From positions 53,612 through 117,611 of the IMG/VR virus record IMGVR_UViG_3300046832_001910: 64,000 bases of DNA; one strand, written 5' to 3'. The notes under the pieces are model-generated. The model did not search any database, was not told the DNA's origin, and was given only the letters and a program-made list of their open reading frames with translations. This document shows, piece after piece, positions 2,016 through 50,320 of the stretch. The stretch's first letter is position 1. Each line of letters opens with the position of its first letter. The position numbers were made by a program, and so were the translations under genes. Source of the stretch: a virus.

Positions 2016-2877
2016 AACGTTTGCTGACGTTTATCAAACAGCACTTAATGATGTACTTAATTACCCAGAGTATGTAACCTCCCCAAGAGGTATGAAAATT
2101 TTTGAGGTAACTAATGCTGCACTTGTTATTGAAGATCCAACATTCCCTCTTTATGAAAATAAAAGAAGAAGTAGTCAATTCAAATACATAGGTGCAGAAT
2201 TAGTTTGGTATTTTACAGGCCGTAGAGATACTGCTTTCATTTCTAAATTTGCAAAATTCTGGGAACAGATTGATAACGGAAATGGTACCGTAAATTCTGC
2301 TTATGGCAGTCTTATCTTTGCTGATAAAAATATTCATAATATTAATCAATACCAATGGGCATTACAGTCCTTAATTGAAGATAAAGATTCTCGTCAAGCA
2401 ATTATACATTTTAATACTCCTAATCATCAATGGAAAGGTAATAAAGATTTTGTTTGTACTTTAACTGGTGTTTTTCAGATCCGTGATAATCAATTAAACT
2501 TTACCATTGATATGAGATCAAATGATCTTATACTTGGTACTCCAACTGATGTTGCATTCTTCTGTCTTTTACAACAGCAAATGTATCATCATCTTAAGAA
2601 ACACTATCCTGAATTGGAAATGGGTACATATACTCATATTGTACATTCACTTCATATTTATGAAAGACATTTCTCGCTAATTCATGAAATGCTTCAACAG
2701 TCTTTTGATCCAATCAGTTTTCCTGAAATTAGAGAGTTTCTGATTGATCCTAACGGTAATCCATTAGATGGCATTAAAGAAATTGAAAATGAAATTGAAT
2801 CAGGTGCCCAAGAAATTCGTGTAAAAGATGACCCTTTACATAATTGGATATCCGATGCGATTTTTATGGATATATAA
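1996..2877 (+). CDS. thymidylate-synthase-family protein, dCMP hydroxymethylase-like
   Basis: DSRQA, DFVCT, MRSND, GTPTD (Asp where ThyA has Asn), SLHIYERHF; resembles T4 gp42. Confidence 0.75.
   Translation: MRIYKGETFADVYQTALNDVLNYPEYVTSPRGMKIFEVTNAALVIEDPTFPLYENKRRSSQFKYIGAELVWYFTGRRDTAFISKFAKFWEQIDNGNGTVNSAYGSLIFADKNIHNINQYQWALQSLIEDKDSRQAIIHFNTPNHQWKGNKDFVCTLTGVFQIRDNQLNFTIDMRSNDLILGTPTDVAFFCLLQQQMYHHLKKHYPELEMGTYTHIVHSLHIYERHFSLIHEMLQQSFDPISFPEIREFLIDPNGNPLDGIKEIENEIESGAQEIRVKDDPLHNWISDAIFMDI
2869..2877 (+). promoter_or_regulatory. class III (late-type) ATA(A/T)ATA box
   Basis: GATATATAA before a leader-bearing gene; similar boxes at 6289, 11603, 21142, 37384, 43838, 49613, 57124, 58364; cf. 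T4 late TATAAATA. Confidence 0.45.
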
Positions 2878-2895
2878 AAAAATAGCCATAGCTCA

Positions 2896-5553: not shown

Positions 5554-6297
5554 ATGTCAACACAACAATCACTATCACAAACGGAAACAATTAATGGCAA
5601 ACGATATTATGTTATAGGAGAACATAAGTATCCTTCTGTTACAACAGTTTTAGGTTCAATGACCGATTCTTCCGGTTTAGATAAGTGGAGAAAAAAGATT
5701 GGTGAAGAAGAGGCTGATCGCATTTCAAAATTTTCTGCAAATCGTGGTACCATCATGCATCAAATGATTGAGTACTTTTTAGGATCAACTAAAGAAACAC
5801 AAAAGGAAAGATTAAAAGAAGCCCAGGAAAGGATTATTGAATTTGTTAAAGCTGAGGGTTTTACTGCCGAGGAATTAGAAGTTGGCCGCAAACTTTTTTA
5901 TAGTTTTTATAATAATGATCTCTTTAGTAAGATAACTAAGGTTATAAGTATCGAGGAGACGCTCTACTCCCACCAGATGGGAGGGTATGCAGGTAGAGTA
6001 GATAATATTTATGAGAATATTTTATCCCATCTACTCATCTTAGATTTTAAGACTTCTAGAAAACAGAAAAAGAAAGAGTGGATTGAAAACTACTTTATGC
6101 AAATTTCTGCATACTTTCTAGCTTACTGGGAAATGACCGGTAAAAAACCACATGGTGGTGAAATCTGGATTGCTGTGGAAAACGATCTTCCACAGGTTTT
6201 TGAAGTTACATGGGAAGATATCCAAGATTATGGTAAGAAATTCTTATCCCTAGTGAAAGAGTACCATAAACTCAATCCATTACCTCAGAATATATAA
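5554..6297 (+). CDS. PD-(D/E)XK exonuclease (Cas4/RecB-like)
   Basis: YPSVTTVL, RGTIMH, AGRVD, LDFKTS, QISAY. Confidence 0.85.
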   Translation: MSTQQSLSQTETINGKRYYVIGEHKYPSVTTVLGSMTDSSGLDKWRKKIGEEEADRISKFSANRGTIMHQMIEYFLGSTKETQKERLKEAQERIIEFVKAEGFTAEELEVGRKLFYSFYNNDLFSKITKVISIEETLYSHQMGGYAGRVDNIYENILSHLLILDFKTSRKQKKKEWIENYFMQISAYFLAYWEMTGKKPHGGEIWIAVENDLPQVFEVTWEDIQDYGKKFLSLVKEYHKLNPLPQNI

Positions 6298-6313
6298 AAA
6301 AACAAAATAATGA

Positions 6314-21125: not shown

Positions 21126-21167
21126 TCTCTATGTCATGACGGATAAATAAAAAAAGATAATATCAAC

Positions 21168-21875
21168 GTGAAATTTATTAAGAACTTTGTTAATTTCTTA
21201 ACAGAAAAGAAAGAAGAAGATTTTGAGGACAAAATAAAGGGCCACGGATATTTTAAGGGAATATCTCAATCAACTGCTCGTAAAAAGCTATCTCAAATGA
21301 AAGACCAGGCAGATAAGCCTGATGATGATCCATCTGCATATAAAGAATTACCTGGTGATACAAAGGGAAAGAAACTTCTAAAAACATCCAAGCATACTAA
21401 AACATATCAGGATCTTTATGGTGATGAAGAAAAAGAAAAGAATGAATCAATCATTAATTGGGAACTTCATCAAAAGCTTAAAGGTAATGATATTAAGATA
21501 GAGAAAGAATTTTATCAATTTCCTTATCTTTTAAATGAAGATGATGCAGGTGGAGATCGTTCGCCTATTGATAATCCTGATATTGAAACCGCTCTTAAAA
21601 ATAAGAGTGAAGAAACTGGAGTACCGGTACCACTTCTTAGAATTGTAATGCGTCGTGGTATGGCTGCATGGAAAAGTGGTCATCGTCCGGGTGCAGGGCA
21701 AGAACAGTGGGGATATGCAAGAGTTAATTCATTCCTAACACAAGCTCCAGGTACATGGGGTAGACCTATTAAAGATCCACAAAAGAATGGTCCTAAAGGT
21801 GCTTATGGTGCAGATGCCGATGTTGCTCAAGAGGTAATTAAAGGTGGCCATGATAAAAACCTAAAAAAGAAATAA
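21168..21875 (+). CDS. putative internal head protein
   Basis: Leader MKFIKNFVNFLTE; RRGMAAWKSGHRPG..WGYARVNSF domain recalled from other phages. Confidence 0.7.
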   Translation: MKFIKNFVNFLTEKKEEDFEDKIKGHGYFKGISQSTARKKLSQMKDQADKPDDDPSAYKELPGDTKGKKLLKTSKHTKTYQDLYGDEEKEKNESIINWELHQKLKGNDIKIEKEFYQFPYLLNEDDAGGDRSPIDNPDIETALKNKSEETGVPVPLLRIVMRRGMAAWKSGHRPGAGQEQWGYARVNSFLTQAPGTWGRPIKDPQKNGPKGAYGADADVAQEVIKGGHDKNLKKK

Positions 21876-22900: not shown

Positions 22901-24256
22901 ATGAGACACATTCCAAGTTACTCGGAATTTAAGAAAATTAATGAAGCATTTGCAACTTCAATGACTACAGTTCAGACTGAAAGTAAACTTAATCAAGCTG
23001 CAGATATTATTACAAATTTCCTAAATAAGAAAACAGGTAAGGCATTCAAAAAGTTTCCTTTTCTGGTTTATTCAAACGGTACTCCAGGTATTATGCTTTA
23101 TAGCGATAAAGATAATTCTGCTGTAAGAATTAGTGGTGGTTCTGGCCATTTCCCTGGTGTGGTTGGTCAATTGGACTATTTTTCTGATGGAGCTTCTTAC
23201 AATGCAGATTTCTCTGTAAGTAGCCAAACATTTCCAATTGTAGCATTACTTAATGAATTTGTTAAATTAATCAATGAGCCTTCATATGCAGGCGAAGTTG
23301 AAAGTTTAACTGAATCAATGGTTAATGAAGCAACTAAATCTTTTTCACCTGCTGAACAGAAAACAATTTTAGCACGTTTGGACAAAGGAGAAAGTGGTGC
23401 TGCTATTGCAAGAGACATGGGGGTATCATACGGAATGATTTTACAGCTTAAGAGAAATGTAAGTGTTCCTGAAGATGTTAATCCTGCTGTAAAGGCAAAT
23501 GAAATGACCTTAGAGGATAAAGTTAAATTACTTGATGAAACATTAGATGACCTTTATGAAATCACAAGAAGACTTGCCGCAGGTGCATTTACCTCTTTAA
23601 TGGTTTCAGGTAGAGCAGGTACTGGTAAAACATTCTCTGTTACTAAAGCTTTAAAGGATGAAGGATTAGTTGAGGATGATGACTTTATCGTTGTATCTGG
23701 TGCGGTATCAGTTATTATGATGTATAAGAAAATGTATCAGTACAGAAACCAAGTTCTTGTATTTGATGACTGTGATGCTGTATTCCGTGATGAGAACGGT
23801 CGTAACATTCTAAAGGCTGCTCTTGATACCAAAAAGGTTAGAAGAATTAGTTATCTTAAGAAGAGCGGATTAGTATTTGACCCTAAAGATTTTGAAAATA
23901 ATCCAGAAGGCGAATTTAATGCAATTGAAAATGGATTAGTTCCAGCATATTTTGATTTTGGTGGTCGTGTGGTATTCATTTCAAACCTACCAAAAGATAA
24001 AGCTGATCCTGATGGAGCAATTCGTTCAAGATCAATTTTATTAGATGTTAACCCAGATGATATGACTCTGATGGAAAGAATTAAGATTCTTTTGCCAGAT
24101 CTTGAACCAAGAGATATGCCTTTAAAGGATAAAGAAGAAATATTTGAATTTATGAAGCGTGCAAAGGATGTATCAATGAGAACTTTTGTTAAAGCTGCAG
24201 GATTCAAACAAGCCGGTCTTAGAAACTGGGAAAGAATGGCACAAAGATACCTGTAA
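22901..24256 (+). CDS. HTH-AAA+ ATPase with capsid-targeting-like leader
   Basis: GRAGTGKT, VFDDCD, AIRSRS; HTH SGAAIARDMGVSYGMI; leader MRHIPSYSEFKKINE. Confidence 0.75.
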   Translation: MRHIPSYSEFKKINEAFATSMTTVQTESKLNQAADIITNFLNKKTGKAFKKFPFLVYSNGTPGIMLYSDKDNSAVRISGGSGHFPGVVGQLDYFSDGASYNADFSVSSQTFPIVALLNEFVKLINEPSYAGEVESLTESMVNEATKSFSPAEQKTILARLDKGESGAAIARDMGVSYGMILQLKRNVSVPEDVNPAVKANEMTLEDKVKLLDETLDDLYEITRRLAAGAFTSLMVSGRAGTGKTFSVTKALKDEGLVEDDDFIVVSGAVSVIMMYKKMYQYRNQVLVFDDCDAVFRDENGRNILKAALDTKKVRRISYLKKSGLVFDPKDFENNPEGEFNAIENGLVPAYFDFGGRVVFISNLPKDKADPDGAIRSRSILLDVNPDDMTLMERIKILLPDLEPRDMPLKDKEEIFEFMKRAKDVSMRTFVKAAGFKQAGLRNWERMAQRYL

Positions 24257-24258
24257 TT

Positions 24259-25941
24259 ATGAAACATATTAATAACTACGACAATTACAAAAATTTAATT
24301 AAAGAAGCGGTTAGCGTTAGAACTGACCGTTATAAGAGATCTCATGGTAAAGAACCTCGTGGTAATGGTCTATGGGCCTTTTACTTTGATGATAAAGAAG
24401 GTGATCCTATATTTACGCCAGGTGCAATGAATTATTCTGATGCTATTAAATGGGCAAAAGAAGAAGCTAAAAAAGCAGGTAAATCTGTTATTTATGTTGG
24501 GGAATCGGTAAATGAAGCTGCACGAGTAGGTAAATCTTCATGGAAATCTGTATTATCTGATCTTGAAGATGAAGGATGGGACGTAAGCGGTAATACAGCA
24601 ACACAAGAAGTTGATTCGGAAAAAGATCCTGAAGGATACGTTACTGTTGAACTTACAAGTAAAGGTGGTGATTATGTAAAGTATACCCTTAAAAGTTCAA
24701 AAGGCAAAGTAATTGATACCGATGAGATTGACGCCGAAGGTTTAAGTGCAGGTGAACTTAATAATGAAATTTGGCATTATATTAAGGAATCAGTAAATGA
24801 AGCCTCTACCGTGAAGGATGAAGTTATCTCAAGACTATCTGATTTTTTTAGAGTATCCCCTAATGCCTTAAAGAAATTTAACTTTGATGGTAAAGATAAC
24901 ATTAAAGAATTAACTAAAGCATTAAACTCAACATCTGACCAAGGTACTGAAATGTACTATAAAGTTGCAATTGATTTAGCCAAAAAGGATTTAGGAGAAT
25001 CTGTTAGTGAAGGACAAGAACTTATCTTTGATATTGTAGAACCTGAATTTAACGATCTTAAAGGTAAACTAGATAATCTTAATAAGAAGACAGTTGATCT
25101 AAAGTGGAGAAAGGCTCTGGACCAAATTCAACGAGAAGTTGAAAAACTTGAATTCTTTATTTCAAAATATGATCGCCAATTAGGTGCAATTGAAACTAAT
25201 GAATCAGTTAATGAAGCATGGTTTGGTCCATTTCAATTTAATGATAAAATGTCAGATGAAGAACTAAAAACAATGTATAATGATGCTGTAAACGGATATG
25301 CATATTGGAAAAAGGGATTGCAGTATCCTAAATCAGATTATAAGAAAGCATACCAGGAAATTGAAAAGATCCTAAAGAAAAGAGGGGTAAAGGTAGATGA
25401 ATCTGCTATTAATGAAAAGGAATACTCTGATGAAGAAAGAAAGGCTCTTGCTGATAAAGGTCTTGCTCTCCCTGATGGTAGTTTTCCTATAAAGAACCTA
25501 GATGATCTTAAAAATGCTATTCAAGCATATGGCCGTTCAAAGGATCAATCTGCTACTGCAAAATTTATTGTTAAGAGAGCCAAGGCTTTAAGCGCTGAGG
25601 ATCTTATACCGGATACGGCTGACTTTCAAAAGGCTCTTAAAGAAACTCTTACTGAAGGAAATGCTTTTCTTGCCGCAAGAGCTAAGGCAATTGAAGAAGA
25701 CCTTGAAGAGTTTGAATTTAATGGTAAGAAATATCCTGTTCTAAATAGGCCTAAGATGGTTAAAGAAGAATTAGATCATAAGGATGCAATGGCAATCATT
25801 AATGCTGCAGGGCAATTCACATCAACTGCCGATGAGGCTGCTGACCAAATGTGGAAGGATAAAGAAGACCTAGTTGATTATCTTTTATCGGATCATATCC
25901 CTAAAAAGTATCATTCACAATTCTTAAAATCAATTAAATAG
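24259..25941 (+). CDS. modular internal head polyprotein
   Basis: Leader MKHINNYDNY..IKE; six ESVNE-type linkers. Confidence 0.7.
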   Translation: MKHINNYDNYKNLIKEAVSVRTDRYKRSHGKEPRGNGLWAFYFDDKEGDPIFTPGAMNYSDAIKWAKEEAKKAGKSVIYVGESVNEAARVGKSSWKSVLSDLEDEGWDVSGNTATQEVDSEKDPEGYVTVELTSKGGDYVKYTLKSSKGKVIDTDEIDAEGLSAGELNNEIWHYIKESVNEASTVKDEVISRLSDFFRVSPNALKKFNFDGKDNIKELTKALNSTSDQGTEMYYKVAIDLAKKDLGESVSEGQELIFDIVEPEFNDLKGKLDNLNKKTVDLKWRKALDQIQREVEKLEFFISKYDRQLGAIETNESVNEAWFGPFQFNDKMSDEELKTMYNDAVNGYAYWKKGLQYPKSDYKKAYQEIEKILKKRGVKVDESAINEKEYSDEERKALADKGLALPDGSFPIKNLDDLKNAIQAYGRSKDQSATAKFIVKRAKALSAEDLIPDTADFQKALKETLTEGNAFLAARAKAIEEDLEEFEFNGKKYPVLNRPKMVKEELDHKDAMAIINAAGQFTSTADEAADQMWKDKEDLVDYLLSDHIPKKYHSQFLKSIK

Positions 25942-25942
25942 A

Positions 25943-26908
25943 ATGAAGTATTTTAATACATACCAAGAATTCCTAAATGAAAAGTATATTTATCCTGATA
26001 ATGTAAAAGTAACTGGTGATAAGATACTTGATAAATTTGCAAAATTAATTCATACTCCCTCTGGTACTGTAAAGATTATGTCTTGGGCAGTACAAGGTCT
26101 TTCTGTTCCTTTTATGAATGGTCCTCAGACTTTTTCTGTTACAGGAAACCCATCAGAAGATACTTATGCAATTCGTACCTCTAACGGTTTATTTAGACTA
26201 AAGAAGGATCAAATTAAAAAGGCTGAAGAACTGTATGACGAAGTTGAATCACTGGTACAGGCAGGTAAACCTAAAAGAAGTGTTGAAGAATCTTTAAGCG
26301 AATCTATTAATATTAAAGATATTAAAGTAGGTACGATTCTAAACTTTAAAGATGGCGAAGTGTGGAAGGTTACAAAGATTGCTGGTCCTTCATCAAATCC
26401 TAGAGGGTTTTTTGCCAAACCACACGATGAAAAGACAAAGAAGGCTAATACATCTGTTGAGATTGAGCTAAAGCCCGACTTTTTACAAAAAGAATTAGAA
26501 TCTTTAAATGAATCGTCTCAGATTAAAGTAGGCACTTTCGTTAGATATAAAAAAGATAAAGATTTTACAGGAGGAAAGGTAATATCTATTAACGGTGGCA
26601 ATGTAGAAATCCACAACTGGGACGGATCTACAATTGAATTACCTATCAAGGATTTAGAATATGTAAAATCTTGGAATGAATCTATTGATTCTGCTATAAA
26701 AATTCTTAAAAAAGAAAACATTATGGCATATCCTAATCCCGAAGATTTGGCAAAAGCAATTCATAAGCATTATAAAGAAATTACTGGTAATAAATACGAA
26801 GATGCCGTTGAAATGTCAATGAATGATAAAGTGGCTGATATCGTATCATACTTTAAAATTGACGGTTCTGATTTTATGTCCGCTTGGGATAAAACAATAA
26901 AAGATTAA
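25943..26908 (+). CDS. modular internal head protein
   Basis: Leader MKYFNTYQEFLNE; linkers ESLSE, ESLNE, NES; two SH3/KOW-like modules (IKVGT..). Confidence 0.7.
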   Translation: MKYFNTYQEFLNEKYIYPDNVKVTGDKILDKFAKLIHTPSGTVKIMSWAVQGLSVPFMNGPQTFSVTGNPSEDTYAIRTSNGLFRLKKDQIKKAEELYDEVESLVQAGKPKRSVEESLSESINIKDIKVGTILNFKDGEVWKVTKIAGPSSNPRGFFAKPHDEKTKKANTSVEIELKPDFLQKELESLNESSQIKVGTFVRYKKDKDFTGGKVISINGGNVEIHNWDGSTIELPIKDLEYVKSWNESIDSAIKILKKENIMAYPNPEDLAKAIHKHYKEITGNKYEDAVEMSMNDKVADIVSYFKIDGSDFMSAWDKTIKD

Positions 26909-26910
26909 TT

Positions 26911-27327
26911 ATGATAACTACATTTAACAATTTCGTAAACGAAAATTTTGGAGAAGCACAAGATCTTTATGGATCATTTTTTGTGGCTATGTTAGGACTT
27001 AGAGATCAAGCTCATGTCTTCCATTGGCAAACAGAATCATTTGCACAACATAGTGCATTTGGCGGATTTTATGATACCTACCTAGACCTAGTTGATAAAC
27101 TAGCAGAATCCCTAATCGGTGTTCATGGAAGACCTTCTTTTATGGAAGCTGAAATTGAATTATCTGGTTATAGCGACCAAAACATTATGATCTTTATAGA
27201 AAAAGCATATGAACTATTCTTAGGCCAAGGTACTGAATTGGCTGGAGGTAACTCCGAGATTAAGAATATCATTGATGAGATTATTGCTGAACTTGATAAA
27301 CTAAAGTATCTTCTTACACTAAAATAA
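26911..27327 (+). CDS. Dps/ferritin-like four-helix protein
   Basis: HVFHWQT..H..Y..DKLAE..KLKYLLTL; leader MITTFNNFVNE. Confidence 0.75.
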   Translation: MITTFNNFVNENFGEAQDLYGSFFVAMLGLRDQAHVFHWQTESFAQHSAFGGFYDTYLDLVDKLAESLIGVHGRPSFMEAEIELSGYSDQNIMIFIEKAYELFLGQGTELAGGNSEIKNIIDEIIAELDKLKYLLTLK

Positions 27328-27623
27328 TGAAACACGTAAAACTGTTTGAGGCATGGTTAAATGAAGGAAAGCCTAAAGGTGCTCCTGACTGGCATGATTC
27401 AGATGCCCCTGATGCAGAAGGCCGTTTTCGTGATCTTAATCCAAAAGAACTTGCTGCATGGCTAATTAAAACCAGAAAAGGTGATCTTAAAAGGATAAGT
27501 GGATCATTAACTCAACAGGTTGTATTTAACCGCAATGATGATCCTGCATATGCAGATAAAATGGAAAGAACCAGAAAAGAAGTTTATAAACAATTAGGTA
27601 GAGAAGATCTCTTAAAGAAATAG
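27327..27623 (+). CDS. putative internal head protein
   Basis: Leader MKHVKLFEAWLNE. Confidence 0.65.
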   Translation: MKHVKLFEAWLNEGKPKGAPDWHDSDAPDAEGRFRDLNPKELAAWLIKTRKGDLKRISGSLTQQVVFNRNDDPAYADKMERTRKEVYKQLGREDLLKK

Positions 27624-27625
27624 TT

Positions 27626-27973
27626 ATGGGTTGTAAATGTAAAGATTGTAAATGCAATGAAATGACAAATGAACAGATCATTTCGCAAATGGATGATCAG
27701 ACCAAACCTTACGTAGAAACCATCATAGATAGAAATATAAGAATAAGACATTTTGATACTCGTTATGGGGATCATTTGTTTAAATGGCACTGGGATGAAG
27801 AAGATCGTTGGATTGAACCAACTGGTGAAACTGATTGGACTTTTCAATTTGATGATGAACTACCTCAATCCCTAGAACCTAATAAAATCATTATGATACC
27901 TAAAGGAGTTTATCATAGACTTATTAAAGGTACTCATATTTTATCTCTTAAAATATCAACAATTCCTTACTAA
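27626..27973 (+). CDS. cupin-like protein
   Basis: WHWDEEDR..IPKGVYHRLIKG. Confidence 0.7.
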   Translation: MGCKCKDCKCNEMTNEQIISQMDDQTKPYVETIIDRNIRIRHFDTRYGDHLFKWHWDEEDRWIEPTGETDWTFQFDDELPQSLEPNKIIMIPKGVYHRLIKGTHILSLKISTIPY

Positions 27974-49915: not shown

Positions 49916-50301
49916 TGAAGAGTTATAAAGATTTTATACACGAAGGGTTTGTTCAAAATGTAATTCAGAATCAAAAGGATCCGGCCTTTAATGGTGCGGA
50001 TCCTTCTTCTATTGAAATACATAATCAAGGAGTTGGTGGAGTTCGTTCTCTTCAAGGTCATCGTGACTACATTGTAAAGCTTTTAGAACAAATGCTTGCT
50101 GATGCCAAAATGGCTCAAAAGAATCATAAGCTTGCACACTATAGCATAGGTAAGATTATATCACTAGCTGACCCGGATTCAATGACAGGTGTTTTATTGA
50201 CCTATCTTAAGAATCATCAAAAGGCTGTTGAAGAATTAGAAGATCTACGTAAAAAGGGTGGAAAAGGACCGGGGTTATCTGTTCCTAAAGGTCTCATATA
50301 A
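49915..50301 (+). CDS. putative internal head protein
   Basis: Leader MKSYKDFIHE. Confidence 0.65.
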   Translation: MKSYKDFIHEGFVQNVIQNQKDPAFNGADPSSIEIHNQGVGGVRSLQGHRDYIVKLLEQMLADAKMAQKNHKLAHYSIGKIISLADPDSMTGVLLTYLKNHQKAVEELEDLRKKGGKGPGLSVPKGLI

Positions 50302-50320
50302 ATATAAAAAAAATAAGGAA

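What the first reader, a model, noticed from the sequence alone, without database searches (positions are those of the whole stretch)
24259..26908. Cargo polyproteins: 65-95 aa modules joined by ESVNE protease-site linkers
Seen: the 560-aa protein has ESVNE (24502), ESVNE (24787), ESVSE (24997), ESVNE (25201), ESAINE (25399) and ETLTE (25642), spaced 95, 70, 68, 66 and 81 aa apart and separating dissimilar segments. The 321-aa protein has ESLSE, ESLNE and NES. Similar linkers occur in 22901 (ESMVNE), 51152 (ESFMNE) and 51787 (ESLSE). The linkers mimic the leader end (L/I/V-x-E). Inference: one tag packages a string of mini-proteins released by the prohead protease, and the linker DNA (gaatcNgtNaatgaa) may serve as a module-shuffling joint.
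Basis: partly seen in the sequence, partly recalled or inferred. Interest (0 to 1): 0.8.

Follow-up and report, generated by a model that had tools for sequence, protein, structure and literature searches.

The report
Phage head-cargo polyproteins with protease-site joints
An uncultured lake-water relative of phage T4 strings small, freely swapped protein modules behind one "load me into the head" tag, joined by a short peptide that matches the predicted cutting site of its own head protease, so one gene probably delivers many small proteins into the virion, although no cut has been measured.

Summary
The 560-aa protein has six E-[ST]-Phi-x-[NTS]-E linkers, against a mean of 0.055 in 20,000 shuffles, none of which reached six. 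They are its only Phi-[NTS]-E sites.

Shown here:
- The linkers match the end of a T4-CTS-like leader carried by about 16 proteins of this phage.
- The same Phi-N-E|[ASG] motif is about ten times denser in leader proteins and in portal, protease-scaffold and capsid proteins than in other proteins.
- AlphaFold gives separate small folds with confidence dips at the linkers.
- 129 homologues have 90 distinct module orders, with 46 family pairs found in both orders.
- Single modules occur alone behind a leader.
- DNA breakpoints in near-identical contigs and in lake metagenome contigs fall in the linkers.

Inferred, not shown: packaging, cutting by the S77 prohead protease, and injection.

This is a new variant of the T4 internal-protein system. 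Six full-text searches found no description of it. The scan has noted the same kind of system on at least eight other genomes.

The parts
24259..24306 (+). Leader of the 560-aa protein (16 residues, ends I-K-E)
   Evidence: One of about 16 proteins with the MKHIxxFxxFxNE-type N-terminus. In homologues the same leader ends in ESVNE or ESLNE itself (P0003, P0021, P0034).
24307..24516 (+). Module A1 (70 aa) with linker ESVNE at 24502-24516
   Evidence: Replaced by a 65-75% identical allele in near-isogenic L082, with the 3' breakpoint inside the linker. Duplicated in tandem in P0069.
24517..24801 (+). Module A2 (95 aa, beta-rich) with linker ESVNE at 24787-24801
   Evidence: Present in only 2 distinct architectures. 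AF2 predicts strands 108-158 followed by a helix.
24802..25011 (+). Module A3 (70 aa, helical) with linker ESVSE at 24997-25011
   Evidence: Absent from P0002, which is 95% identical elsewhere. It has 9 left and 11 right neighbour families. The block A3+A4 sits in another protein in L083, bounded by two linkers.
25012..25215 (+). Module A4 (68 aa, helical hairpin) with linker ESVNE at 25201-25215
   Evidence: 12 left and 9 right neighbour families. pLDDT below 50 at 246-253 and 311-324 brackets it.
25216..25416 (+). Module A5 (67 aa) with linker ESAINE at 25399-25416
   Evidence: It comes first after the leader in P0058 and P0065, and after A6 in P0026. Metagenome contigs diverge at 25398 and 25403, inside or at the edge of the linker.
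25417..25656 (+). Module A6 (80 aa, DGSFPI / DLKNAIQ motifs) with linker ETLTE at 25642-25656
   Evidence: Occurs alone behind a leader (P0240, 89 aa; P0233). At least 535 viral loci carry it. It forms the C-terminal domain of an S78 protease next to the capsid gene in a Gordonia phage. No Pfam or PHROG family matches it.
25657..25767 (+). Module A7a (37 aa), ending in the degenerate joint V-K-E
   Evidence: pLDDT below 50 at 496-503. Homologues have K-L-N-E at this place.
25768..25941 (+). Module A7b (57 aa, helical) and stop codon
   Evidence: Follows A6 directly in P0134, P0019 and P0017. It gains a linker when it is internal (P0004, P0010).
25943..25981 (+). Leader of the 321-aa protein (13 residues, ends L-N-E)
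   Evidence: In metagenome contigs it is joined directly to B2.
25982..26302 (+). Module B1 (107 aa) with linker ESLSE at 26288-26302
   Evidence: Skipped exactly (321 nt, joint 25978->26300) in a contig of run X23, and a contig of run X22 runs from 25981 into the start of B2. Mostly replaced by another module in L082.
26303..26512 (+). Module B2 (70 aa, small beta-barrel-like) with linker ESLNE at 26498-26512
   Evidence: Found inside relatives of the 560-aa protein (P0008, P0010, P0015, P0021).
26513..26680 (+). Module B3 (56 aa, beta) ending in W-N-E
   Evidence: Absent from L084 and L082. In the window it is flanked by the direct repeat AATGAATC. A contig of X23 skips 165 nt, 26514->26680. 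Present in P0003, P0004, P0010, P0013 and P0064.
26681..26908 (+). Module B4 (75 aa, helical) and stop codon
   Evidence: Forms the C-terminal module of P0016 and P0169, which otherwise resemble the 560-aa protein.
22901..24256 (+). Neighbouring leader protein: N-terminal module, double linker ESLTE-SMVNE, then an AAA-type ATPase
   Evidence: (phrog_1250, E 1.9e-41). The linker is conserved in L082, L084 and L002.
27327..27623 (+). Stand-alone leader plus one module (C1, 85 aa)
   Evidence: The same module is the C-terminal module of the long polyproteins P0056, P0059, P0071, P0072 and P0091.

Best explanation
The two genes encode capsid-targeted cargo polyproteins of a T4-like phage.

Proposed mechanism:
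1. A 13-16 residue N-terminal leader of the T4 capsid-targeting type takes the precursor into the assembling prohead core.
2. The phage's gp21-family (Peptidase_S77) prohead protease cuts after the Glu of Phi-(N/T/S)-E at the end of the leader and at every linker.
3. This frees eight (560-aa protein) and four (321-aa protein) separately folded proteins of 4-12 kDa.
4. These stay in the head with the DNA and are probably delivered to the host.

Every module ends in the same short peptide, so every module also ends in 8-17 nt of nearly the same DNA. Recombination at these joints, at leader ends and at gene starts inserts, deletes, swaps and reorders whole modules.

What is shown: the motif and its specificity, its identity with leader ends, its enrichment in head proteins, separate folds, module shuffling, and breakpoints in the linkers.

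What is inferred: targeting, cutting, retention in the head, injection, and what the modules do.
For: Leader:
- About 16 proteins share it.
- The leaders end in F-L-N-E, F-I-N-E, F-M-N-E and the like.
- In homologues they end in ESVNE or ESLNE itself.

Protease:
- Peptidase_S77 hit at 54.3 bits against a cut-off of 27, in a 577-aa protease-scaffold fusion.
- Its four Phi-N-E|S sites are conserved in 3 of 3 orthologues, although their surroundings vary.
- The capsid protein has L-N-E|S near residue 59.

Motif density of Phi-N-E[ASG] per 1000 aa: 3.02 in leader proteins, 3.51 in portal, protease-scaffold and capsid proteins, 0.32 in the other proteins.

Specificity: 6 of 6 and 4 of 4 Phi-[NTS]-E sites in the two proteins are joints.

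Folds:
- 560-aa model: pLDDT 76.7 but pTM 0.28. pLDDT falls below 50 at four of the six linkers and at the hidden joint, and dips to 55 at the sixth linker.
- 321-aa model: dips at all three linkers.

Shuffling:
- 129 homologues give 90 distinct architectures, 91 module families and 46 family pairs in both orders.
- Stand-alone leader plus module: P0240, P0233, P0170, P0202.

Motif-blind test: interior ends of gapped alignments with at least 90% identity lie within -3..+5 residues of Phi-[NTS]-E in 118 of 162 cases, against 10% for random positions.

DNA breakpoints:
- Window against L082.
- The B3 insertion/deletion flanked by AATGAATC.
- L083 block 24789-25218, bounded by two linkers.
- Metagenome contigs that skip B1 and B3 exactly.

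Timing: a late-type box ATATATAAA lies upstream of head and tail genes and of the cargo clusters.

T4 precedent (passages read in PMC9026906 and PMC5694885): a 10-residue CTS is enough for packaging, residues 8 and 10 govern processing, and gp21 cuts after Glu.
Against: - There are no virion proteomics, no isolate and no RNA data. Cutting, packaging and injection are untested.
- Linker 2 (res 177-181) is modelled inside a long helix with pLDDT 62-67, not as a loop.
- The 321-aa model is poor overall (pLDDT 61.6) and also dips at places that are not linkers (1-62, 164-169, 286-293).
- The junction logo is partly circular, because library modules were cut at the motif.
- In the motif-blind test 44 of 162 high-identity breakpoints do not lie near a motif.
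- One replacement in L082 breaks inside the tail of B1, not at a linker.
- None of the 11 modules of these two proteins has a recognisable function.
- The modules are not basic like T4 internal proteins (pI 4.4-8.2).
- S77 was found in only 2 of 5 related contigs. The other three are fragments, 19-37% complete.
Confidence: 0.6

Rival explanations
1. Uncut multidomain head proteins. The leader targets the protein and is removed, but the internal linkers are only flexible spacers. Their shared sequence persists because it is the recombination joint or helps the domains fold independently. The protein works as beads on a string.
For: Shuffling at the linkers is shown and does not by itself require cutting. 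Linker 2 is modelled as helix. There is a slight GAA excess at linker Glu codons (61 of 64 against 837 of 986, p=0.017).
Against: A spacer does not need an invariant Glu with a hydrophobic residue two places before it. The same P3-P1 pattern ends the leaders and marks conserved sites in the protease-scaffold and capsid proteins. Ser and Val codons in the linkers vary freely, so the peptide is what is kept, not the DNA. Modules shed the linker when they are C-terminal and gain one when internal.
Confidence: 0.2
2. Disposable core or scaffold components. Like T4 gp22, gp67 and gp68, the polyproteins help build the prohead core, are chopped by the protease and leave the head. They would not be cargo.
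For: Module A6 is the C-terminal domain of an S78 protease with a long acidic spacer, directly upstream of the capsid gene, in a Gordonia phage. That is where scaffold-type shell-binding domains usually sit, which is my own general knowledge. In the papers read, propeptides with several cut sites are cleared from giant-phage heads (PMC10052503, PMC5694885, passages).
Against: Module content differs between near-identical phages (L082, L084, metagenome variants), which is unlike an essential scaffold. The phage already has a conserved 577-aa protease-scaffold with a long repeat region. The pieces are folded domains of 4-12 kDa, larger than the short fragments said to exit T4 heads (PMC5694885, passage).
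Confidence: 0.12
3. The shared N-terminus is not a capsid address. It could be a shared translation-initiation or regulatory cassette, or a signal for another destination. The Phi-N-E motif would then serve another protease or none.
For: No experiment links this leader to the head. Leader DNA is similar between genes.
Against: Synonymous positions in the leaders differ while the residue pattern is kept. The leader ends in the motif that is enriched in head proteins. The genome encodes a gp21-family protease. The clusters carry the same late-type box as structural genes.
Confidence: 0.04

Closest known systems
Phage T4 internal proteins (IPI, IPII, IPIII, Alt) with the capsid targeting sequence, processed by gp21
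   Same: A short N-terminal tag is shared by otherwise unrelated proteins. The tag ends in hydrophobic-x-Glu. The phage has a gp21-family (S77) prohead protease. The gene sets are variable. Basis: and passages of PMC9026906, PMC3012670 and PMC5694885.
   Different: As described in the passages read, T4 internal proteins are single proteins with one N-terminal cut (Alt also has a C-terminal one). Here one tag precedes 4-8 unrelated folded modules, each followed by its own copy of the site, and the modules are exchanged as cassettes. The leader is 13-16 residues, not 10. The modules are not basic. No T4 sequence was compared here.
Multiply cleaved head and ejection proteins of giant phages (phiKZ, 201phi2-1, SPN3US)
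   Same: A gp21-like protease cuts after Glu at a three-residue motif, with several motif copies per protein (PMC10052503, PMC5694885, PMC9026906, passages).
   Different: There, the extra sites lie in long N-terminal propeptides that are degraded and cleared, leaving one mature protein. Here, the sites separate distinct folded modules of similar size, and the motif is Phi-N/T/S-E rather than A/S/G-x-E.
Polyvalent proteins of phages and conjugative elements (Iyer et al. 2017, PMC5512222)
   Same: Many unrelated domains sit in one polypeptide, encoded among late or structural phage genes. They are thought to be packaged and processed into units, and the authors compare them with RNA-virus polyproteins (passages).
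   Different: Polyvalent proteins carry recognisable enzyme or effector domains and an embedded metallopeptidase for self-processing. Here no peptidase or known domain is present. Processing would be by the separate prohead protease at a repeated linker, and there is an N-terminal capsid tag.
Polyproteins of RNA viruses
   Same: One translation product with protease sites between functional units (general knowledge).
   Different: The resemblance is by analogy only. The protease is different, the substrate would be cut inside a capsid, the units are non-essential and interchangeable, and this is a DNA phage.

Membership tests
T4-type CTS-tagged internal head proteins | Short N-terminal propeptide shared by otherwise unrelated proteins of one phage | tested here: met
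   About 16 ORFs carry the MKHIxxFxxFxNE-type start: 15 in the window and one beside the capsid genes.
T4-type CTS-tagged internal head proteins | Propeptide ends in the prohead-protease site (hydrophobic at P3, Glu at P1) | tested here: met
   The leader ends are F-L-N-E, F-I-N-E, F-M-N-E, F-V-N-E, W-L-N-E, F-L-T-E, L-I-K-E and similar. For T4, residues 8 and 10 of the 10-residue CTS govern processing (PMC9026906, passage).
T4-type CTS-tagged internal head proteins | Phage encodes a gp21-family (Peptidase_S77) prohead protease | tested here: met
   PF03420 at 54.3 bits against a cut-off of 27, at G000:C1:18575-18922. Also found in 2 of 5 related contigs.
T4-type CTS-tagged internal head proteins | Late expression together with head genes | tested here: inconclusive
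   The box ATATATAAA / ATAAATAAA lies about 20 nt upstream of portal, protease, sheath and other structural genes, and of 2896, 6314, 21168 and 50321. This is a sequence resemblance only, with no transcript data.
T4-type CTS-tagged internal head proteins | Protein present in virions with the leader removed | not testable with these tools
   There is no isolate and no proteome.
T4-type CTS-tagged internal head proteins | Sequence homology to T4 IP proteins or their CTS | not tested
   No T4 sequence was fetched. The resemblance of the leader to the T4 CTS rests on the pattern described in PMC9026906 and on recall.
Polyvalent proteins (Iyer et al. 2017) | Several unrelated domains in one polypeptide in a phage late or structural context | tested here: met
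   8 and 4 modules; 91 module families among 129 homologues.
Polyvalent proteins (Iyer et al. 2017) | Embedded peptidase (MPTase) and recognisable effector or enzyme domains | tested here: not met
   No Pfam family was found at E<=0.01 for either whole protein. No module hit reaches its curated cut-off at E<=1.
Giant-phage multiply cleaved head proteins | Repeated short motif ending in Glu, matched to the phage's own gp21-like protease | tested here: met
Giant-phage multiply cleaved head proteins | Extra sites lie in a propeptide that is removed, leaving one mature protein | tested here: not met
   The sites separate 56-107 aa folded modules along the whole length. Each module also occurs on its own or in another order.

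The most novel reading that the evidence does not exclude
The protease-site linker is a dual-use element. As a peptide, it lets one capsid tag load an arbitrary string of mini-proteins that the head protease separates. As DNA, it is shared with leader ends and overlaps gene starts in another frame, and it serves as a universal splice point. Lake phage populations would then keep a combinatorial, fast-turning arsenal of injected small proteins, probably counter-defence or takeover factors. This would be a cassette system for virion cargo comparable in logic to polymorphic-toxin cassettes.
Probability: 0.35. Interest if true: 0.85.

Novelty: new variant of a known kind. Interest (0 to 1): 0.7.

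Why it matters
If the cuts are real, tailed phages have a polyprotein strategy for loading their heads. One address tag and one protease would deliver many different small proteins in fixed proportion, and new ones could be added by a single recombination at a short joint.

That would explain how the internal-protein repertoire of T4-like phages can change so fast. It would define a large pool of uncharacterised candidate injected proteins: 91 module families in this sample alone. The widespread A6 domain would be a candidate capsid-interior binding module.

It would also give a natural design rule (tag, module, Phi-N-E linker) for packaging several foreign proteins in T4-type heads.

It is directly testable with virion proteomics of a culturable relative, or with recombinant protease and substrate.

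Tried and rejected
Searches and tests that gave nothing or little:
- DNA search of 22901-26908 against GenBank phages found no match.
- The first scan of viral contigs, with the single protein as query, found no relative. The alignment query then worked.
- Pfam and PHROGs on whole proteins and on single modules gave nothing above a cut-off.
- Foldseek of the 560-aa model against PDB gave no match at E<=0.001.
- The protein atlas for A6 returned only unnamed viral clusters and a weak lead to DUF6582, carried by 13% of the members of one cluster. I did not pursue it.
- The first breakpoint histogram from gapped blastp of the two window proteins was too blurred to use.
- The ungapped version was noisy: 863 of 2398 ends near a motif, against 7.9% for random positions. 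I replaced it with the identity-stratified gapped test.
- The junction logo is partly circular and is used only as a description.
- Extra DNA-level conservation of the linker was tested and is weak.
- Two joints (24081->24164, side 29; 24480->25357, side 21) and several loose ends away from linkers were set aside as probably coming from other organisms. Parts of the stretch without contig cover in single runs are not used.
- Cluster names gave no annotation.

Literature and supplements:
- Six searches found no description of head-cargo polyproteins. Papers in subscription journals are outside that library.
- Supplementary files were not opened. Supplementary Figure 1 of PMC5694885 (T4 IP propeptides) and the site tables of PMC10052503 could refine the comparison of motifs.
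Full report
CONTEXT

The window is the last 64 kb of a 117.6-kb IMG/VR virus record, estimated 38% complete. Upstream of the window the record carries T4-type head and tail genes. One of them is a 577-aa protein whose N-terminus matches Peptidase_S77, the gp21 prohead-protease family, at 54.3 bits against a cut-off of 27. Its remainder is a long repeat-rich scaffold-like region. The stretch occurs almost word for word in 24 lake-water metagenome runs, 8 of which may be the source of the record. No GenBank phage matches it at the DNA level.

OBSERVATION

The six linkers of the 560-aa protein, their coordinates and their spacings are exactly as reported. So are the linkers of the 321-aa protein and of the genes at 22901, 51152 and 51787. 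Chance does not explain them. Six motifs compare with a mean of 0.055 in 20,000 shuffles, and no shuffle reaches six. Every [LIVMF][NTS]E in the 560-aa protein (6 of 6) is a linker. All four [LIVMFW][NTS]E in the 321-aa protein are the leader end or a linker. I add a seventh, degenerate joint (V-K-E, residues 501-503), so the protein has eight modules.

LEADER AND PROTEASE MOTIF

About 16 ORFs of the record begin with the same 13-16 residue pattern and then diverge. Most leaders end in Phi-N-E, which is the P3-P1 of the linkers. In several homologues the leader ends in ESVNE or ESLNE outright.

The motif Phi-N-E followed by A, S or G has these densities per 1000 residues:
- 3.02 in leader proteins
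- 3.51 in the portal, protease-scaffold and capsid proteins
- 0.32 in the remaining 30,838 residues

The protease-scaffold has four such sites. One lies just after the protease domain, one after the repeat region, and two near the C-terminus. All four are conserved in 3 of 3 orthologues while their flanks vary. The capsid protein has L-N-E|S near residue 59.

From the passages I read, T4's capsid targeting sequence is 10 residues, with residues 4 and 7 mattering for targeting and 8 and 10 for processing. gp21 and its giant-phage relatives cut after Glu at a three-residue motif (PMC9026906, PMC5694885, PMC10052503). Head and tail genes and four of the cargo gene starts share an ATATATAAA-type box about 20 nt upstream. 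This fits late co-expression but does not prove it.

MODULES FOLD SEPARATELY

AlphaFold2 on the 560-aa protein with 51 aligned sequences gives mean pLDDT 76.7 but pTM 0.28. pLDDT falls below 50 at 85-92, 246-253, 311-324, 382-385 and 496-503, and the 461-470 block averages 55. That covers five of the six linkers and the hidden joint. Linker 2 lies in a helix with pLDDT 62-67.

The 321-aa model is weaker (pLDDT 61.6, pTM 0.31). It dips at all three linkers, and also at 1-62, 164-169 and 286-293.

Foldseek against PDB gave nothing. Against viral models, the hits were single small proteins of 67-102 residues matching one module.

HOMOLOGUES ARE MOSAICS

- The near-length search listed 369 proteins at E<=0.001 among 8000 scored candidates.
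- The shorter-length search listed 226 at E<=1e-5 among 4730 candidates.
- I examined 129 of them in detail: the 119 listed hits other than the window's own protein (a further 249 hits were not listed), plus ten members.
- Mapping a module library onto the 129 gave 90 distinct architectures, 91 module families and 46 family pairs found in both orders. Module A6 has 25 different left and 17 different right neighbour families.

Examples:
- P0002 is 95% identical to the window protein but lacks A3 and A5 precisely.
- A5 comes first after the leader in P0058 and P0065.
- A6 precedes A5 in P0026.
- B2, B3 and B4 of the 321-aa protein lie inside relatives of the 560-aa protein.
- The window's stand-alone 98-aa leader protein (27327) is the last module of long polyproteins (P0059, P0071, P0091).
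- P0069 has A1 twice in tandem.

Leader plus a single module also exists: P0240 (89 aa), P0233, P0170 and P0202. Modules lose the linker when they are C-terminal and gain one when internal.

A motif-blind test agrees. Interior ends of gapped alignments lie within -3..+5 residues of Phi-[NTS]-E as follows:
- at 90% identity or more: 118 of 162, against 10% for random positions
- at 80% or more: 295 of 511, against 10.9%
- at 60% or more: 796 of 1740, against 10.7%

BREAKPOINTS IN DNA

Four independent comparisons:
1. L082 is nearly identical to the window on both sides. It is only 65-75% identical from just after the start codon to the first linker. The last mismatches lie inside the linker codons.
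2. L084 lacks B3. In the window, B3 is flanked by the direct repeat AATGAATC.
3. L083 carries a block matching window 24789-25218 (95.8% nt, 100% aa). This is A3+A4 bounded by two linkers, in a different protein.
4. In lake metagenome contigs, one joint skips 321 nt (25978->26300), exactly B1. A contig of another run goes from 25981 straight into the start of B2. One joint skips 165 nt (26514->26680), which is B3. Two contigs diverge at 25398 and 25403, at the ESAINE linker. One of them continues into a module seen after A5 in P0035 and P0065.

Against the pattern, the replacement of B1 in L082 breaks inside the tail of B1.

Codon use shows the constraint is mostly on the peptide:
- Ser and Val codons vary.
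- GAA is only slightly enriched: 61 of 64 against 837 of 986, p=0.017.
- AAT is not significantly enriched: 19 of 21 against 529 of 707, p=0.13.

MECHANISM

Module independence, shuffling and linker breakpoints are shown. The linkers have the same form as the leader ends and as the conserved sites in the head proteins.

Three things are inferred: that the S77 protease cuts the linkers, that the leader takes the precursor into the prohead, and that the pieces stay in the head and are injected. I put the full chain at about 0.6.

The rivals are:
- an uncut beads-on-a-string protein (0.2)
- a disposable core component (0.12)
- a leader that has nothing to do with the head (0.04)

COMPARISON AND NOVELTY

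The system works like T4's CTS-tagged internal proteins and meets the family features I could test. It differs in placing many interchangeable modules, each with its own site, behind one tag.

It differs from the multiply cut propeptides of giant phages, where one mature protein remains. It also differs from polyvalent proteins, which carry their own peptidase and known effector domains (PMC5512222). None of those is present here.

Six full-text searches found no description of such polyproteins. This scan has reported the same kind of system on at least eight other genomes, and first-reader notes on this genome list the leader family. I did not test those reports.

I class this as a new variant of a known kind.

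LIMITS

- No proteome, transcript or isolate was available.
- Module functions are unknown.
- Supplementary files of the papers were not opened.

Noticed in passing
window 25417-25656; L086 4001-4198: Module A6 (DGSFPI / DLKNAIQ motifs) is found in at least 535 viral-contig loci and in actinophage, Bacteroides-phage and other records. It has no Pfam or PHROG family. In Gordonia phage ChisanaKitsune it is the C-terminal domain of an S78 prohead protease with a long acidic spacer, just upstream of the capsid gene. It may be a general prohead-interior binding domain.
   Followed up: partly
L083 983-1030: The last linker of a polyprotein is followed by two codons and a stop. The start codon and first residues of the next leader-bearing gene lie inside that linker in the +1 frame, so the N-E-A codons read as M-K-H. 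Linker ends and gene starts thus share ATGAA in different frames, which could allow fusion and fission of polyprotein genes.
   Followed up: partly
G000:C1:18509-20242 (upstream of the window): The prohead protease is fused to a scaffold-like region made of about a dozen copies of an 11-residue Y-x-E-Y/H-Phi-A-E-type repeat. Four conserved Phi-N-E|S sites bracket the protease domain, the repeat region and a C-terminal tail.
   Followed up: partly
window 22901-24256: A leader-bearing protein has a 104-aa N-terminal module and a double linker (ESLTE then SMVNE), followed by a helix-turn-helix-like stretch and an AAA-type ATPase (phrog_1250, E 1.9e-41). An enzyme appears to travel as cargo.
   Followed up: no
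window 26911-27327: A Dps/ferritin-like protein (DUF5856, phrog_858) carries a short leader-like N-terminus. In L084 the same position holds a different, longer ferritin-like ORF.
   Followed up: no
window 2870-2895, 6290-6313, 21140-21167, 50295-50320; genome 16790, 18485, 22117, 35045: A late-promoter-like box (ATATATAAA or ATAAATAAA, often followed by a run of A) lies about 20 nt upstream of structural genes and of the first gene of each cargo cluster. A terminator-like hairpin precedes the one at 21168.
   Followed up: partly
P0069 (homologue, 560 aa): Module A1 occurs twice in tandem, each copy with its own ESLDE or ESLNE linker. Modules can therefore also be duplicated in place.
   Followed up: no
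window 24000-27700 in runs X20, X22-X24: Variants of this gene pair that differ by whole modules occur in lake-water metagenome contigs; both the B1 skip and the B3 skip were seen in run X23. Module content appears to be polymorphic within natural populations.
   Followed up: partly
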